Shown: one piece after another, positions 2-6,440 of the stretch | Numbering within the stretch: the stretch's first letter is position 1 | How the letters are laid out: each line of letters opens with the position of its first letter | Source of the DNA: Dipteris shenzhenensis | Lineage: Eukaryota | Assembly: GCA_047967505.1 (NCBI GenBank) | Contig: CM106538.1 | Direction: 5' to 3' (one strand) | DNA: 64,000 nucleotides | Notes under the pieces: generated by a model | Told to the model about the DNA's origin: nothing | Database searches by the model: none | What the model saw: the letters and a program-made list of their open reading frames with translations, nothing else | Position numbers and translations under genes: made by a program

Positions 2-1036
2 GGAAGCCTGCTGGAGTCGCTGAATGGAGGCGAGGTCCCTCCGAAGAGCTCTCTCTCTGCCCCACCAATCCTGTCGAACCTGTAAAGCTGCGAGCTGGCA
101 GATCTGGCTAGACTCCTGCAGAGCCTGTGCGACTGAGTCTACCAGATCCACGCCCTCCCCCCAATCTCTGTCCCAAAGACTGCATATGCTGCTGCGCACG
201 TCCACCCTCGAGAAGATGGAGTCGGGAATCCTGCATGATCGGGAGGGGAGGGTCTGGGCTGCCGAATCTAAGGAAAGGAGCACAGGCGCATGATCGGAGA
301 GTGTCGTCCCTGGAACTATACCCGCCTGGCCGCCTCTGCTGATGGCCCAGTCACTGACATAAAATCTATCAAGCCTCTCCAGGAGTCTGCCTCCTTCCCT
401 GCGGAAGCCCCAAGAGAAGTCCAGGCTCCCGTGCCAACGCCGGAAGGACGGGTCTCTCCAACTGTCCCTCCCTCCCGTCTCGAAGATGAAAGAGTCCCAA
501 GCTGACTGCTCTGCCTGGGCCATACCTGTGAACTCCGGGCCTCTGCCCTGCTGGTCCTCCAGGGTCTCCAGGTTGTTGAAGTCTCCTCCAACAATCCAGG
601 AATCCATGTCTGGAAGAATCCCTGTAAGTGTCCTCCAGAAGGTGGCTCTGCAACGGAGGTCTGTGGGGGCATAAATGTTGAGGATGCCTATTTTGGATCC
701 CTCCAAGTCCAGGCCTACCCAAAGGGCTCGGCCAGGAATCAACGTGCCGTGACCAAAAACTCCCTGGGCTAACTGCTCGCACACGGAAGTACAGACACCC
801 CCACTCCTCCCCTGAGCGCCGATCGAGGGCTCCCAATAAGTGTAGGACCGTCCAGGGAGAATCTTCCCGCAGCTACGGGAATGAGCCACAGAAAGCTTGT
901 GCTCCTGGAGCAGAAGTACATCCAAACGACCAATCACTGCAGGCTGAAGTTCCTGCCGCAAAATGAGCTTCCTGGGACCACGGGTGCCAGAGGAGTGAAA
1001 CCCGTTCACATTCCAGGATACGAGGTGTAAGCTCAT
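2..1036 (-). CDS. L1 ORF2 N-terminus, AP-like endonuclease domain (partial, no stop in window)
   Basis: Hand translation from ATG 1036: MSLHLVSWNVNG...LLLQEHK...ILNIYAPTD...WIVGGDFNN...ERLDRFYVSDW...LSDHAPV; open to position 2. Missing from the ORF track because it runs off the window. Confidence 0.95.
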   Translation of the reverse strand, partial: MSLHLVSWNVNGFHSSGTRGPRKLILRQELQPAVIGRLDVLLLQEHKLSVAHSRSCGKILPGRSYTYWEPSIGAQGRSGGVCTSVCEQLAQGVFGHGTLIPGRALWVGLDLEGSKIGILNIYAPTDLRCRATFWRTLTGILPDMDSWIVGGDFNNLETLEDQQGRGPEFTGMAQAEQSAWDSFIFETGGRDSWRDPSFRRWHGSLDFSWGFRREGGRLLERLDRFYVSDWAISRGGQAGIVPGTTLSDHAPVLLSLDSAAQTLPSRSCRIPDSIFSRVDVRSSICSLWDRDWGEGVDLVDSVAQALQESSQICQLAALQVRQDWWGRERALRRDLASIQRLQQAS

Positions 1037-1836
1037 GGAGAGGGAAGGGGGGCTGCGAACAACTGTCTGCTCGCGGTCGAAGTCGAAGAAGAACCAGACG
1101 TATCGGAATGGAGGCGCTGCCGCTTATGAGAAGGTTTGGAGGGGGAGACGGGGTCGTCCTGCCCGTTCTTCAACACCTTCAGCAAAGGCGAGAGGCCTTT
1201 GGTGCCATGAGCAAATGCTTTCTCGAGCCAGCTCGAGATCTCTGAAGAGGTCATCCCGTAGAAGGTTCGGAGTTTCTGCTGGGACCAAGCTCTGACATCC
1301 TGGGGGAGAGGCCATGACAGGGGAGGTCGGAGGATCACTATCAGTCGGAAGCGTTTGGCGGCGCAACGCCACCGCAAGCGCACGTCGCCCTCGGACCACT
1401 GAGTCTCGAGGAGCTGCCCACCGGACGGGCCTATCCAGGAACACACCTGGGCGTGCGTCTGCTCTCTGAGAGCCTCCCAAACCGAGTCGTCTGTCCAGGT
1501 CTCGGTGCCATCACTGAGGAACGTGAAAGCGAAGCTAGGGCCATCCCTGGGAGCCAAGGCACCAATCCTCCCATCCGCCCCTTTGCGGAGCAGGAAAATA
1601 CTGATGTCGAGACAAGCCGGGAAGGTCCCAAGGTCGGCCACATCCAGGTAGTCCCAGGGGCCAGATCTGTAGAAGTCTCGTGGAAGCTCTCTCTCATGGA
1701 GCTGAGACCCAACTGAGTCTACCACTGAGGGGCTAGCGGGAAGGGAAGCCTGCTCCACTGGTGGTGTAGACTCCGGGTGTCCTGCCAGCGAGGGGGGAGG
1801 GGGAGGAGGCTGAGGGATAGGCAGCTCTGACTCCAC
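1033..1836 (-). CDS. Probable C-terminal part of L1 ORF1 (frameshifted at a G/C homopolymer) or a separate middle ORF; unknown globular domain
   Basis: 267-aa open frame that stays open upstream into the Pro/Ala linker (LVPLASPSELAAPPASQP...); its stop TGA (1035-1033) overlaps the ORF2 ATG (1036-1034). Confidence 0.7.
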   Translation of the reverse strand: MESELPIPQPPPPPPSLAGHPESTPPVEQASLPASPSVVDSVGSQLHERELPRDFYRSGPWDYLDVADLGTFPACLDISIFLLRKGADGRIGALAPRDGPSFAFTFLSDGTETWTDDSVWEALREQTHAQVCSWIGPSGGQLLETQWSEGDVRLRWRCAAKRFRLIVILRPPLSWPLPQDVRAWSQQKLRTFYGMTSSEISSWLEKAFAHGTKGLSPLLKVLKNGQDDPVSPSKPSHKRQRLHSDTSGSSSTSTASRQLFAAPLPSP

Positions 1837-1907
1837 GGAGGCGACTGGCGGAGGAGGTGGAGGAGGTGGAGCGGGGGCTGCACACGGCTGGGAAGCCGGT
1901 GGTGCAG

Positions 1908-3896
1908 CTAACTCTGAGGGAGAGGCGAGGGGGACCAGGGGGGGGGGGGATGGGGGTGCAGCTGGAGCTGGGGCTGAGAGGGAGGAAGAGAAGACTGAGG
2001 AAGAGGAGGCGGGGGCTGAAACTGCGGGTCGGGCGACGGGGGGGGGGGGGGGGGAGACTGGGGAGGGGGCTGGGGCGGGGAGGAAAGGGGCGGGGGAACG
2101 GGAGAGAGGGGGAACTGAGGCTGTGGAGGGCGGGCTGCCGTCGAAGAAGAAGCTCTCCCAGACCCCTGGGGCGGCTGCCTGACAGGTCTCTGGGGTGCTG
2201 CTGCAGGAAGGGTGACCTCTGCCTCCTTGCCTTTATCCGAAGTCTTCTTGTTCTTTCCCCTTTTCCTTTTAACCTCGGTCCAACCGCCCACTACCTCTGG
2301 ACCCGACTCCTGCTGTCTCGGCTCCTCCTGACGTGGCTGTCCAGGGGGTGGGGGTGGGGGCGGAGGGGTCGGGGGCGGGGGAGGTCGAGACGAGCTGGCG
2401 AAACGTGGACAAGCAACCGCCAAGTGCCCAAAGCCGTGGCACCGCAGGCACTGACCTGGCTGTCCGGTGACTATCATGCTCTGGGTGATACTGCCGGCAC
2501 CTGTCACAATCTCGATCACAGCAGGGAGAGTCGCAGGATCCGCCACCGCCACTCGGACTCGGGGGGCTCCTGCCGTGGTCACCGCGTCGGCAAAGGTGTC
2601 GTGCATAACCCAGCCAAAATGGGAGCCCAAGTCCCTGACAATCGGGCGCAACTCTGCAGCAAGCCCTGGAAAAACAAGTGTCACTGGGTGTCGAGGTATG
2701 CGGAACCGAGCATCGAACTCCGCTGCGCTGAATCCACGGTACCACGGGACTATCATGATAATCTTCCCATCCACCGAGGTGGGGGAACTGGCAATCAGGT
2801 TGCTCGCAGCTTTCTCAGTGGAGAGTTTGAGCCAGAAGATGCCCCTTCCCATAAGGGCCACCTCCTCAATATGGCCATCCTCTAGCAGGAGAGTGGACTG
2901 GAGCCAGTCCCTGATGGCTAACCTGGAGGGGGAGTGACCAATGACTCTACCGTAAACAGAGGTACGCGCAAAGTCAATGGCAACCTCCTGAACACGAGAT
3001 GACTGTCGCTCTGTCAGGATAACGCGGTAGGCATCTGGAGAGGGAGGGTCCGACTGGGCCTCCGGATCCGGGCAGGGGGCCGCCAGACCGCCAAGACTAA
3101 CTGCAAGCTTCCGATGGGGAGTATGAACAGGCTGCCACCCCAAAAAGGGGGGACGAAGCGGGAGGTGGAGCCTGGGGGTGAGGCGGGCGAGGCGGGGTGA
3201 GGGGGCGGGGGGGGTTGGAGCGGAGGGCGGGGTGAAGGGATCGGGGTGCGGGGAAAAACGGGGGGGCGCGGGAGGGCGGGGGGGGGTGGCGGGGGCGGAG
3301 AGGTAAAGCGGGGGGCGGGGAGAGCGGAATGGAGGCGGGGGGGCGGGTGAGGTGAGAGGGGACGGCGGGTGAGGCAGAGCGGGGGAGGGAGGGGGTGAGG
3401 CGAAGCGAGGGGGGGGGAGGGGTGAAGCGAGGTGGGGCGGAGGGGGGCGGAGTGGATGAGAGCGGAGGGGGGGTGAGAGGGCGGCTGAGACGAGGGGAAG
3501 GGGGGGGTGGAGGCGTAAGGAGGGGGCGGCGAGGGTGAGGTGAGAAGGAGCGGGGGAGAAGGGGGGAGTAGAGGCGAAGGGAGGGGGCGGCGGGGGTGAG
3601 GGGAGATGGAGCGGCGCGGCGGGGCGGGGCGGGAGAACAGTGAGGGGGGCGGGTTGGAGCGGAGCGGCGGGCGAGAGAGAACAGCGAAGGGGGGGGGCGA
3701 GAGCGAGGCGAGGCGAGGGGAGGGGCGCAGCGAGGTGGCCGGCGGGTGAGGGGGAGGGGGGGCGGGGGGCGAGGGCGGAGGGGGAGGGAAGGGAGCGGAG
3801 GTGGTCGCGGCGGGGGGAGGAGCTAAGGGGAGGTAGAGCGAGCGGCGGTAGGGAGGGGAAGCTCACAGGAGCACATTTATTCCTGCCCAATGGCAA
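1908..3896 (-). CDS. L1 ORF1 (DUF4283/RRM-like region + zinc knuckle + Pro-rich linker); the N-terminal Pro-rich part may be 5' UTR
   Basis: SVYGRVIG...MGRGIFWLKL...IMIVPW...HPVTLVFPGL resembles plant L1 ORF1; knuckle CLRCHGFGHLAVAC (CX2CX4HX4C). Track start is a non-ATG codon, true start uncertain. Confidence 0.85.
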   Translation of the reverse strand: MPLGRNKCAPVSFPSLPPLALPPLSSSPRRDHLRSLPSPSALAPRPPSPSPAGHLAAPLPSPRLALAPPLRCSLSPAAPLQPAPLTVLPPRPAAPLHLPSPPPPPPFASTPPFSPAPSHLTLAAPSLRLHPPLPLVSAALSPPLRSHPLRPPPPHLASPLPPPRFASPPPSPALPHPPSPLTSPAPPPPFRSPRPPLYLSAPATPPRPPAPPRFSPHPDPFTPPSAPTPPAPSPRLARLTPRLHLPLRPPFLGWQPVHTPHRKLAVSLGGLAAPCPDPEAQSDPPSPDAYRVILTERQSSRVQEVAIDFARTSVYGRVIGHSPSRLAIRDWLQSTLLLEDGHIEEVALMGRGIFWLKLSTEKAASNLIASSPTSVDGKIIMIVPWYRGFSAAEFDARFRIPRHPVTLVFPGLAAELRPIVRDLGSHFGWVMHDTFADAVTTAGAPRVRVAVADPATLPAVIEIVTGAGSITQSMIVTGQPGQCLRCHGFGHLAVACPRFASSSRPPPPPTPPPPPPPPGQPRQEEPRQQESGPEVVGGWTEVKRKRGKNKKTSDKGKEAEVTLPAAAPQRPVRQPPQGSGRASSSTAARPPQPQFPLSPVPPPLSSPPQPPPQSPPPPPPSPDPQFQPPPPLPQSSLPPSQPQLQLHPHPPPPWSPSPLPQS

Positions 3897-4826
3897 TCCT
3901 CAGTGCATGTGAGACTCCTTTGTCCTCGAGATACTGCCATGCTCGGATTGATAGATTCTATGTGGATGACTGGGCTCTTGATAGAGGGGGGACAGTTTGC
4001 ATTGCACTTGGTGTCTCCACCTCCGATCATTTTCCGATAGTTTTGTCTATCTCAGAGCCCCATCTGAGAGGACGGTCTCACAGCATCAGGATCCCCGATG
4101 CCTTATACACAGATGAGACTCTCACAGAGGCAGTCTTGGAGATTTGGGTTTCTCACTTGCAGGGGGTGGCCGGTCCCTCACATGTGGCCACAGCACTTGC
4201 CAGACTGCAGTCAGGTGAGGACTGTTTGGAAAGGGGTTGCTCGGATACTCAGCATTTTTCCTACTTCTCCTTTCTTCATGACTTGGGGCTCGGTCACATG
4301 GTTATCCCTTACTGGGCCCCAGGTGTTTTATGAGGGTGAGCCTTCTTCTTGGGCGCTCTCGGTCCGCGGGCAGGTGATAGAGCCCTGCTCTCTTCAGGAT
4401 GTACCACTTACTCCCTTTAGAGCTTCCTATGCTTCAGTGGACACCTCTTGGGAGATTTTGGCTAGCATTTCCTCTTGGCACATTTGGAGAGCCAAATGTA
4501 CAAAGGCATTGGATGGCACGCAGATACACCCATCACAGGTGTTCATGGGTATTTGGACTGACATGGTTCACACGTTGATAGCCACTTGGGTTAGCATGTA
4601 GGGCCCGTGAGCCTCTTCTAGGAGGACTGTTTTTCTTCGAGTTTGGAGGGATTCTCCCTTTTTCTTGGAGGGTTCTAGTGGATTGAGATAGCACTATCAG
4701 CCACAATCCTTTCTTTTTGGCTCTTGAGCTTTTCATGCATTGCATGGTGTATCCGTATGGAGCTTGCTCTAACGGTTTTCTTTAATACTTAATAGAAGTC
4801 TCTTTTTGCAAAAAAAAGAAAAGAAG
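3865..4826 (+). mobile_element. Degenerate, internally deleted L1 related to the adjacent young LINE
   Basis: ARIDRFYVDDWALDRGG...SDHFPIVLS...IRIPD parallels ERLDRFYVSDWAISRGG...SDHAPVLLS...CRIPD of the young copy. It then jumps to the ORF2 C-terminus (HLPDCSQVRTVW...WHIWRAKC) and ends in an A-rich tail at ~4810-4826. Confidence 0.85.
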
Positions 4827-4829
4827 TAG

Positions 4830-6440
4830 AGACAATGCTGATCCCGTAGCTTGCCCCATGCTCTGCACATCTCTGTCTTCTTCTCATCATGCTCACCTCC
4901 AATAATGTCAGGTATATGGCCAGCACTTGGCTTGGGCTTCTTGCCTCTGGGGTCCTCTCTATTGCCTTGATTAGTGTCAGCCTGAGTTGCTGCAGGTTCT
5001 TTCCTCTTCTTGTTAGGACAATTTGCTGCCCTATGACCCGTCTCTTTGCAAAGAAAACACCTCCCTTCAGTAAACAACTTGTTCCTCTCCTTAGGAGTGA
5101 GAGAAGAGGGTTGTTGTTTTCTCCTTTGTCCTACCACAAACTTTGATTTAAGAGGGACTTTTCCAGCTTGCTGTGGTTTCTTTGGCTCCTCCTTGAAGTT
5201 GCTCTTGAAACTTGAGACTCTGCCCTACATGAGTGAGTAAGCTGTGTTGGCATTCTCTATCAACTGTGACATGCTAGAAATATGTCTTGGTGCAATAGTC
5301 CCTCAACTCTTTGGGAAGACCACAACAATACTTTTCAGCTTGCTCTGAAATAGGGACTGTTCTGTAGAGCTCACAGGTAGAAGCACATCCCAAAACTTCT
5401 TGTTGTAATCCTCAAGATTCCTGCATTCCCTGAGTCATGACATCCACTTCAAAAGTAGTGGTGAGCCATGCGGTTGAGAATGCCTTTTTGAATTCAACTC
5501 ATGTAGCAGGTGTTTGGCCCTAAAGGAGAAGGTTAGACCACCACTGCATGGCATTTCCCTTGAGGAATGTGGCTGCCTTCCTAATTTTCGAAGACTCTCT
5601 GAAGTACCCTCCATCAAAAGCCAAATCAAATTGCTGCAAGAAGTAAGAGCCTTCATTCTATCTGCATGACCATTAAAGGTCTCAAACTTCAATGCTGCCC
5701 CCCCTTCCTTGTAATCCTTCATGAAGAACACCCCCCACAGTTGGGTTTGCAGGCATAGGTGGCACTAGCTGAGTGTGTGACATGATAGGGTTGCCTCCTT
5801 GCAATCCAGGCTGTATCCCCACATTAGCATACAAAGAATTTGGGGCTGGCTGTGAGGTCATGGCCTGAAAAATGGAACCTCCTCCAAAGTGTGTAGGCTG
5901 AACCACATATTGTGGTTGGGCTTGCTGCCCTTGCTGCACATTCTGAGCATTGCTACCATGCTCATTCCCATTTGGTCCCTGCCTCTGTGGCACTGCAAGT
6001 GGCTGTACCACTGGTGTAGGTGGCTCTGATAGTGGCTGTACCATTGGTGTCGGTGGCTCTGGTAGTGGCTGTCCCACATGCATCTATGGACCTTGAATGG
6101 GTTGTGCCTCTGCCCTTGGCATCAAAGCTGGATTATGCACAATCTCAACAAAGCTCTAAGTGAGCTGAGTCAAAACTTGCAACACAGAAGCCATCTGTGT
6201 TTGCATTATTGCCATAGCATTTGCCTGCACACTTGGGTCAACACCCAATGCAACTGTACCCACAGGATTTTGCATTTGTGGAGCTGGCTGCCCCAATGCA
6301 TCAGCTTGAACATTCTGCCCTTCATGGGCTACATTCTGCACTCTTATTCCGGGGTGTGCTCCCTTATTTGTGGCTCTTGGTCAGACTCTGAGTGTGCATC
6401 ATATCCAAGCCTGATATTATCCATATCCAAAAGCAATGGA
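4830..6440 (-). pseudogene. Gypsy gag, frameshifted, with a 33-bp tandem repeat (VQPLxEPPTP) at ~5999-6078
   Basis: ORFs 6156-6341, 5682-6083, 5435-5731 and 4769-5137 are collinear fragments ending in a CCHC knuckle. Confidence 0.75.

What the first reader, a model, noticed from the sequence alone, without database searches (positions are those of the whole stretch)
1033..1836. Unexplained ~170-aa globular domain between L1 ORF1 zinc knuckle and ORF2 (weakly Nudix-like)
Seen: after the knuckle and a Pro-rich linker there is a stop-free, non-low-complexity segment (ELPRDFYRSGPWDYLDV...ISIFLLRKGADGRIGALAPRDGPSFAFTF...DSVWEALREQTHAQV...FRLIVILRP...SWLEKAF), ~1190-1690. Established: plant L1 ORF1 is usually RRM/DUF4283 + knuckle + disordered tail, and some LINE ORF1s carry captured accessory domains such as esterase or PHD. 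Inference: this is an accessory domain kept intact in a young element. The strand-strand-helix pattern with EALREQTH loosely echoes the Nudix box (RELxEExG) but lacks key residues, so it would be a degenerate RNA/nucleotide-binding fold at most.
Basis: partly seen in the sequence, partly recalled or inferred. Interest (0 to 1): 0.8.

Follow-up and report, generated by a model that had tools for sequence, protein, structure and literature searches.

The report
Nudix-like domain in LINE ORF1
A jumping-gene (LINE) copy carries, between its RNA-binding gene and its enzyme gene, a conserved folded protein domain that looks like a Nudix fold without the catalytic motif, a domain type not listed among known LINE ORF1 parts.

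Summary
On the minus strand, 1036-1836 is stop-free. Residues encoded by about 1165-1689 form a non-repetitive domain. It has 23 relatives in 1.84 billion representative proteins, all short unnamed fragments, 26-81% identical. A second sub-lineage exists. The domain is far better conserved than the linker before it: 240/388 against 20/107 identities. Its TGA overlaps the ORF2 ATG (ATGA, 1033-1036). The stop sits at the same place in 6 of 6 copies that reach it. Pfam and PDB sequence searches find nothing.

My reading is a non-catalytic Nudix-fold binding module at the C-terminus of ORF1p. This copy is not intact. The domain lies in the -1 frame relative to the knuckle, with C17 and C12 runs in the overlap, and ORF1 has no upstream ATG. 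The fold is predicted only, and the function is inferred.

The parts
2..1036 (-). 5' part of ORF2 (apurinic-type endonuclease). It starts at ATG 1036-1034 and runs off the window's left end.
   Evidence: Translation. Pfam Exo_endo_phos PF03372, E 1.9e-11, residues 35-278. Best PDB sequence match is a plant chloroplast AP endonuclease, E 2.5e-9. Of the listed differences to related contigs, 14 of 17 fall on codon position 3.
1033..1036 (-). ATGA overlap: the TGA stop of the domain-bearing frame shares two bases with the ATG of ORF2.
   Evidence: Read directly. The stop position is the same (7 residues after the QLF motif) in 6 of 6 sequences that reach the end.
1036..1164 (-). Conserved C-terminal tail after the fold. 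It is predicted to be disordered, is basic and Ser/Thr-rich, and ends at the stop.
   Evidence: pLDDT 43-51 for the last blocks. The tail still aligns well in P0012, P0024, P0028, P0029 and P0033.
1165..1689 (-). Nudix-fold-like globular domain (residues 15-189 of the 205-aa query). Element order is strand-strand-strand, helix-helix, strand-strand-strand, helix-helix.
   Evidence: AF2 model with mean pLDDT 73.2 and pTM 0.66; blocks covering residues 41-180 score 67-92.
1441..1509 (-). Position equivalent to the Nudix box (loop plus first long helix, query residues 75-97). The motif is degenerate.
   Evidence: In this copy the stretch reads G-x5-D-x7-R-E-Q-T-H-A-Q-V. The two metal-binding Glu positions are His and Ala, and the closing Gly is Val (read). 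These positions vary between lineages. The best local hhalign alignment to 14 E. coli Nudix domains falls here but is not significant (P 0.063).
1690..2232 (-). Pro/Ser/Ala-rich linker in the domain's frame. Over 1911-2232 it overlaps the tail of the knuckle frame.
   Evidence: The linker is not conserved between copies: 20/107 anchored identities.
2038..2054 (-). C17 homopolymer inside the frame overlap. A second run, C12, lies at 1938-1949.
   Evidence: Such runs are indel-prone and hard to sequence, so they are the likeliest place of the frame change. That last point is inference.
1908..1910 (-). Stop codon of the knuckle-bearing frame.
2409..2450 (-). CCHC zinc-knuckle pattern (C-x2-C-x4-H-x4-C).
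   Evidence: Read from the translations. Pfam did not report zf-CCHC for it.
2451..3041 (-). ORF1 core, weakly DUF4283-like.
   Evidence: PF14111, E 0.15, 12.2 bits, below the 27.2-bit cut-off; the matched part is 2721-2870.
3042..3899 (-). C-rich (G-rich on the + strand) degenerate tandem repeats at the 5' side. All three minus-strand frames are open, and there is no usable ATG.

Best explanation
The segment encodes a genuine folded domain of about 175 residues that forms the C-terminal module of the first protein (ORF1p) of a LINE retrotransposon. It lies downstream of a weakly DUF4283-like core, a CCHC knuckle and a variable Pro-rich linker. Its reading frame ends in a TGA that overlaps the ORF2 ATG. 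The domain most likely adopts the Nudix alpha/beta/alpha sandwich but has lost the Nudix catalytic box. I therefore read it as a non-hydrolytic binding module. It would then resemble CFIm25, TIRR/NUDT16L1 or the MutY/MUTYH C-terminal domain; the roles of those three proteins are recalled, not tested here. In this reading it helps ORF1p recognise the element's RNA, a 5' end or cap, or a nucleotide during RNP assembly. Shown: the open frame, the conservation, the position in the element, and the absence of the Nudix box. Predicted: the fold. Inferred: the binding function and the fusion to ORF1p. In this copy the domain sits in the -1 frame relative to the knuckle. The likeliest cause is a length change in one of two long C runs in the overlap.
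For: Relatives and their lengths. 23 relatives at E<=1e-3 in 1.84 billion representatives, 17 of them at E<=1e-10, 26-81% identical, all 55-173 aa. 5 in the length-matched search. 15 with a profile, including a sub-lineage (P0026, P0031, P0032, P0034, P0035) that is only 21-32% identical to the window copy.
Conservation against the linker. Anchored at the domain's N-terminal motif, 5 copies share 240/388 residues downstream and 20/107 upstream.
Synonymous differences. One search shows 40 of 424 differences. 8 of the shown ones lie in 1117-1731, and 6 of those 8 are synonymous.
Position in the element. ATGA overlap with ORF2. The stop is in the same place in 6 of 6 sequences reaching it. P0031 also shows a low-complexity linker followed by the domain at the protein's C-terminus.
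Against: Both models rest on a shallow alignment of 20 mostly fragmentary sequences. The two models share that alignment, so they are not independent.
No sequence method sees Nudix. Pfam gives no NUDIX hit at E<=10 in any of 20 members. A profile against PDB sequences finds nothing below E 0.6. hhalign against 14 E. coli Nudix domains gives P 0.063 and probability 0.9%.
The synonymous-site test uses 8 sites. The codon-position test for domain plus tail is not significant (5 of 9 at position 3, p 0.14).
Fusion to ORF1p is not shown. This copy has a frame change, contigs of relatives are under 1 kb, and no protein longer than 241 aa carrying the domain was found.
The LINE context of the distant sub-lineage is unknown.
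No binding or expression data exist.
Confidence: 0.6

Rival explanations
1. It is a real, conserved ORF1p domain, but with a fold of its own. The three-layer alpha/beta arrangement only superficially resembles Nudix, and there is no common descent or shared binding mode.
Against: The hit lists are nearly pure Nudix in four searches with two aligners and two models, and enriched for Nudix in a viral library. The order of secondary-structure elements matches the Nudix order. The best local profile alignment falls on the Nudix box region.
Confidence: 0.2
2. It is an active Nudix-type hydrolase with a divergent catalytic site, for example an RNA decapping or nucleotide-sanitising activity carried by the element.
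Against: The two Glu of the REUXEE core are His and Ala here and change freely between lineages. The Arg is K, L, Q, H, T or Y in others, and the closing Gly is absent. Rows within 1 Z unit are ties, so a preference for decapping enzymes is not established.
Confidence: 0.07
3. The domain is not part of ORF1p but a separate product. It would be either a third ORF, or a -1 frameshift extension made from only a fraction of ORF1 translations.
For: In this copy the domain frame is -1 relative to the knuckle frame, with a 322-nt overlap. One search lists a frame-changing gap at 2156 in only one contig of X1 and none of X2; 5 further indel rows are not shown. Poly-C stretches formally fit the X XXY YYZ pattern.
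Against: There is no ATG in the domain frame before the domain. There is no canonical slippery heptamer with A or U (0 of 6 candidates). C17 and C12 runs are classic sites of indels and assembly error. One related contig has a 2-nt gap at 2156 that puts the two frames in register. A Pro-rich linker reads as Pro-rich in either frame, so a shift there costs little.
Confidence: 0.12
4. It is a chance open frame in GC-rich DNA with no function.
For: GC is 0.60, and neighbouring low-complexity stretches are open in all frames.
Against: 24 of 20000 shuffles stay open. There are 23 relatives down to 26% identity with conserved hydrophobic and Trp/Gly/Pro positions. The core of the model is confident.
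Confidence: 0.01

Closest known systems
NUDT16 / X29 snoRNA-decapping Nudix hydrolases and their inactive paralogue TIRR (NUDT16L1)
   Different: Identity is 8-12%. There is no Nudix box and no Pfam NUDIX signal. Here the fold is a terminal module of a retrotransposon protein, not a free-standing cellular enzyme. Z differences to other Nudix families are under 1, so they are ties.
CFIm25 (CPSF5/NUDT21), a non-catalytic Nudix-fold RNA-binding protein
   Different: No sequence similarity. RNA binding by the LINE domain is untested.
MutY/MUTYH C-terminal domain
   Different: It belongs to a DNA glycosylase and recognises 8-oxoG (recalled). The context and partner domains differ.
Accessory domains of LINE ORF1 proteins (Khazina and Weichenrieder types I-V: RRM, CCHC, coiled coil, CTD, PHD, esterase; also DUF4283 and HTH_1)
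   Same: The same logic applies: an extra folded module in ORF1p besides the RNA-binding core, in a type-I-like layout of core plus CCHC knuckle (passages read in PMC4120745, and PMC5203782).
   Different: None of the listed domain types is a Nudix fold. The domain matches no Pfam family. Human L1 ORF1p structures do not appear among the top 50 rows of either wide fold search.

Membership tests
Nudix superfamily (fold level) | An alpha/beta/alpha sandwich with the Nudix strand and helix order. | tested here: met
Nudix hydrolases (Pfam PF00293) | The Nudix box GX5EX7REUXEEXGU with its metal-binding Glu residues. | tested here: not met
   The window copy reads G-x5-D-x7-R-E-Q-T-H-A-Q-V. The Glu-Glu pair is His-Ala, and the final Gly is Val. 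The positions vary among lineages. The motif itself is recalled from general knowledge.
Nudix hydrolases (Pfam PF00293) | A significant match to the family's sequence profile. | tested here: not met
   No NUDIX hit at E<=10 in any of 20 members, nor for the window protein at E<=1. hhalign against 14 E. coli PF00293 domains gives P 0.063 and probability 0.9%.
Nudix hydrolases (Pfam PF00293) | Pyrophosphohydrolase activity on a nucleoside diphosphate linked to X. | not testable with these tools
   This needs a biochemical assay.
LINE ORF1p type I (RRM or DUF4283 core plus CCHC knuckle) | A CCHC zinc knuckle. | tested here: met
   The C-x2-C-x4-H-x4-C pattern at 2409-2450 was read from the translation. 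Pfam zf-CCHC did not report it.
LINE ORF1p type I (RRM or DUF4283 core plus CCHC knuckle) | An RRM or DUF4283 domain upstream of the knuckle. | tested here: inconclusive
   DUF4283 reaches E 0.15 and 12.2 bits against a cut-off of 27.2. No structure was predicted for this part.
LINE (non-LTR retrotransposon), L1 clade | An ORF2 with an AP-type endonuclease followed by an L1-clade reverse transcriptase. | tested here: inconclusive
   The endonuclease is present (PF03372, E 1.9e-11). The reverse transcriptase lies beyond the window's left end, so the clade could not be assigned.

The most novel reading that the evidence does not exclude
This LINE family has recruited a decapping-enzyme-like Nudix fold (NUDT16/Dcp2 type), stripped it of catalysis, and uses it in ORF1p as a reader of the RNA 5' end or cap. 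Such a module could tie the protein to its own capped transcript or shield that transcript from host decapping. That would define a new ORF1p type beyond the five described. A bolder sub-variant is that the module is added to only a fraction of ORF1p molecules by slippage at the long C runs.
Probability: 0.15. Interest if true: 0.8.

Novelty: new variant of a known kind. Interest (0 to 1): 0.55.

Why it matters
ORF1 proteins of LINEs are modular, and their accessory domains (esterase, PHD) point to how the RNP is assembled or targeted. A conserved Nudix-fold module would add a domain type not listed in the ORF1 classifications I read passages of. My full-text searches combining Nudix with ORF1, retrotransposon or non-LTR also turned up nothing relevant (listings only, 3 and 11 papers). 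Nudix folds handle nucleotides, caps and RNA. The module therefore offers a directly testable link between a retrotransposon's packaging protein and the 5' end of its RNA. The family also has no Pfam model and no annotated member in the collections searched, so it is currently invisible to automatic annotation.

Tried and rejected
1. Pfam on the domain, ORF1 and ORF2: no family for the domain, none relevant in 20 family members at E<=10. Single members gave weak HTH_23, DUF1153 and WHD_MCM8 hits at E 0.1-0.32, and 4 members hit Phage_P2_GpE at 0.004. I take these as noise.
2. PDB by sequence (best E 0.11) and by profile (best E 0.61): nothing.
3. ESM Atlas: best score 0.79, below the level the tool treats as meaningful.
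4. Longer proteins carrying the domain: none among 1830 candidates. This is weak evidence, as the tool says.
The single-protein scan gave 88 pattern matches and none confirmed. No DNA of other copies could therefore be fetched, and no proper dN/dS could be computed.
6. Cluster look-up of 6 relatives: all are singletons without names.
7. Sequencing runs: 2 coded runs hold small shares (0.10 and 0.09), and no RNA holder is listed. Laying them showed 347 and 223 contigs at >=80% likeness. Depth differences between parts were not used, as the tool advises.
8. hhalign against E. coli Nudix domains: not significant.
9. Programmed -1 frameshift: no canonical slippery heptamer, only poly-C.
10. The window holds no second copy of the domain.
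13. A paper search with 'fern' returned only unrelated L1 papers.

Full report
ANATOMY. The element lies on the minus strand and runs off the left end of the window. Reading 5' to 3' on that strand, its parts are as follows.
- 3899-3042: a C-rich block of degenerate tandem repeats (GC 0.69-0.73). All three frames are open there, and no ATG leads into ORF1.
- About 3041-2451: an ORF1 core with only a weak DUF4283 match (E 0.15, 12.2 bits against a cut-off of 27.2).
- 2450-2409: a C-x2-C-x4-H-x4-C knuckle pattern.
- A Pro-rich tail of that frame, which stops at 1910-1908.
- 2232-1033: a second open frame, -1 relative to the first. It reads as a Pro/Ser/Ala-rich linker down to about 1690. A conserved tail predicted to be disordered lies at 1164-1036.
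- 1035-1033: the TGA of that frame overlaps the ATG at 1036-1034 of ORF2 (ATGA). ORF2 carries an AP-type endonuclease (PF03372, E 1.9e-11; best PDB sequence match a plant chloroplast AP endonuclease, 2.5e-9).
The reverse transcriptase is outside the window, so the LINE clade was not determined.

- An exhaustive phmmer scan of 1.84 billion representative proteins found 23 at E<=1e-3, of which 17 are at <=1e-10 and 2 at <=1e-30. All are short (55-173 aa), from unnamed ENA or Logan contigs, and 26-81% identical.
- A length-matched search added 5.
- A profile search gave 15, including a distinct sub-lineage (P0026, P0031, P0032, P0034, P0035). Its members are 69-85% identical to P0026 but only 21-32% identical to the window copy.
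- Several fragments change abruptly into unrelated sequence (for example P0008, P0010, P0020, P0023). This is expected for decayed copies of a repeat family.
- Two coded runs of one coded organism hold 347 and 223 contigs that are 80-100% like the first 4 kb of the window. 53 of them are at >=99%. The family is therefore multi-copy there.

IS IT UNDER CONSTRAINT? Three lines of evidence bear on this, none of them a full dN/dS.
(1) I anchored on the conserved N-terminal motif of the domain (L-P-x-x-F-Y) and compared the five relatives that extend upstream with the window copy. They share 240 of 388 residues downstream but 20 of 107 upstream. The boundary is sharp, and the linker is free to vary.
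(2) The distant sub-lineage keeps the same pattern across the whole domain: Gly-Pro-Trp near the start, hydrophobic strands, a Trp before the long helix, [WY]-[IL]-G-P after it, R-L-x-W, and the C-terminal W-[LM] helix.
(3) One search lists 40 of 424 differences between related contigs and the window. Of the 8 listed ones inside 1117-1731, 6 are synonymous. For comparison, 14 of 17 in ORF2 lie on codon position 3 (p 5e-5). The codon-position test for domain plus tail is not significant on its own (5 of 9, p 0.14).
I could not fetch DNA of other copies, so a proper dN/dS remains to be done.

POSITION IN THE PROTEIN. The stop lies exactly 7 residues after a conserved Q-L-F motif in all 6 sequences that reach it (window, P0012, P0024, P0028, P0029, P0033). 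In the window it overlaps the ORF2 ATG. In the distant sub-lineage, P0031 shows a Ser-rich linker followed by the domain and then the end of the protein. This fits a C-terminal module of the protein encoded upstream of ORF2.

In this copy, however, knuckle and domain are in different frames that overlap over 1911-2232. The domain frame has no ATG before the domain, and the next ATG in the ORF1 frame lies inside the core at 2852. The overlap holds a C17 run (2054-2038) and a C12 run (1949-1938). There is no canonical slippery heptamer. One related contig differs by a 2-nt gap at 2156, which brings the two frames into register. No such gap is listed for the contigs of the other run at that place. 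The simplest reading is a length change in a homopolymer or nearby, either real or an assembly error. A constant -1 arrangement cannot be excluded with the data at hand. This copy is therefore not shown to be intact.

WHAT FOLD? No sequence method names the domain.
- Pfam: no hit at E<=1 for the window protein, and none relevant at E<=10 for 20 members.
- PDB sequences: best E 0.11 with the single sequence and 0.61 with the profile.
- ESM Atlas: best score 0.79.

An AlphaFold2 model built on a 20-sequence alignment has mean pLDDT 73.2 and pTM 0.66. Its blocks covering residues 41-180 score 67-92. The element order is three strands, two helices, three strands, two helices. The structure searches gave these results.
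- Foldseek against the PDB: no hit at E<=1e-3 (best 1.2e-3, TM 0.2-0.35). But 34 of the 39 rows shown are Nudix-superfamily proteins by title or by my recollection of the family.
- Viral BFVD library: no hit at E<=1e-3, but 24 of 50 rows carry a Nudix-type name.

IS IT A NUDIX ENZYME? No evidence says so. But the two metal-binding Glu are His and Ala, and the closing Gly is Val. Across lineages the Arg is K, L, Q, H, T or Y, and the best-conserved acid is one position off. I aligned the 14 PF00293 domains of E. coli K-12 and compared the profiles with hhalign. The best local alignment does place this stretch on the Nudix box, but with P 0.063 and probability 0.9%, which is not significant. I therefore do not file the domain as a Nudix hydrolase. 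I describe it as Nudix-fold-like with a degenerate box.

HOW IT MOST LIKELY WORKS (inference). Nudix folds without catalysis are known to serve as binding modules. Examples are CFIm25 for RNA, TIRR for a protein partner, the MutY/MUTYH C-terminal domain for a damaged base in DNA, and NrtR/AraR for small ligands. These roles are recalled; the PDB titles agree for CFIm25-RNA, TIRR-53BP1, MUTYH-DNA and AraR-arabinose. ORF1 proteins coat and chaperone the element's RNA. The most economical mechanism is that this module adds a second binding surface for RNA, an RNA 5' end or cap, or a nucleotide, next to the knuckle. The conserved basic tail and the ATGA overlap suggest that the end of this ORF is also constrained by its coupling to ORF2 translation (inference). 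The ranking of decapping enzymes near the top is suggestive of cap or 5'-end recognition but is statistically a tie with other Nudix families.

COMPARISON WITH WHAT IS KNOWN. I read passages of Metcalfe and Casane 2014 (PMC4120745) and Ivancevic et al. 2016 (PMC5203782). They list RRM, CCHC, coiled coil, CTD, PHD, esterase, zinc finger/leucine zipper, DUF4283 and HTH_1 as ORF1 domains. Nudix is not among them. Full-text searches for Nudix with ORF1 and retrotransposon (3 papers) and Nudix with non-LTR (11 papers) gave no relevant title (listings only). The supplementary tables of PMC5203782 were not opened. Subscription papers are not covered, so 'not described' is limited to these searches. 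On this basis the finding is a new variant of a known kind: a type-I-like LINE ORF1 with an added module that is orphan by sequence and Nudix-like in predicted fold.

VERDICT. The domain is real (about 0.9), the Nudix fold is probable (about 0.7), a non-catalytic binding role is plausible, and the exact ligand is unknown. Interest is moderate to good for transposon biology. The claim rests on predicted structures and fragmentary relatives.

Noticed in passing
window 3827-4333 (+): A fragment resembling the C-terminal part of another LINE endonuclease lies in the opposite orientation and abuts the 5' repeats of the element. tblastn of ORF2 residues 250-335 hits 3944-4198 at 38% identity, E 2e-12. 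Pfam finds nothing at E<=0.1.
   Followed up: partly
window 4769-5224 (-): A 151-aa open frame carries a zf-CCHC knuckle (PF00098, E 3.8e-5). It is probably a gag-like remnant of another retroelement.
   Followed up: partly
window 3042-3899: A block of degenerate tandem repeats, G-rich on the + strand (periods 5-61, GC about 0.7, GC skew 0.57), in which all three minus-strand frames are open. It reads as a long Pro-rich N-terminus of ORF1 but has no ATG, so it may be 5' UTR or repeat expansion rather than coding.
   Followed up: partly
window 1036-1164 (-): The tail after the fold is predicted to be disordered. Yet it is about as conserved among copies as the domain, with a basic K-R-x-R-L stretch and a T-S-T-A-S-R-Q-L-F motif just before the ATGA overlap. 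This could reflect a nuclear-localisation signal or an RNA element for ORF2 re-initiation. Neither was tested.
   Followed up: no
window 1165-1290 (-), last two helices of the domain: Single family members gave weak helix-turn-helix-type Pfam hits (HTH_23 E 0.1, DUF1153 E 0.1, WHD_MCM8 E 0.32). The sequence pattern of the last two helices looks HTH-like by eye. The hits are not significant.
   Followed up: no
window 1821-2885 (+): A 354-codon antisense open frame runs through the linker and knuckle region. It is Gly/Arg-rich low complexity and is most likely a by-product of the C-rich sense strand.
   Followed up: no
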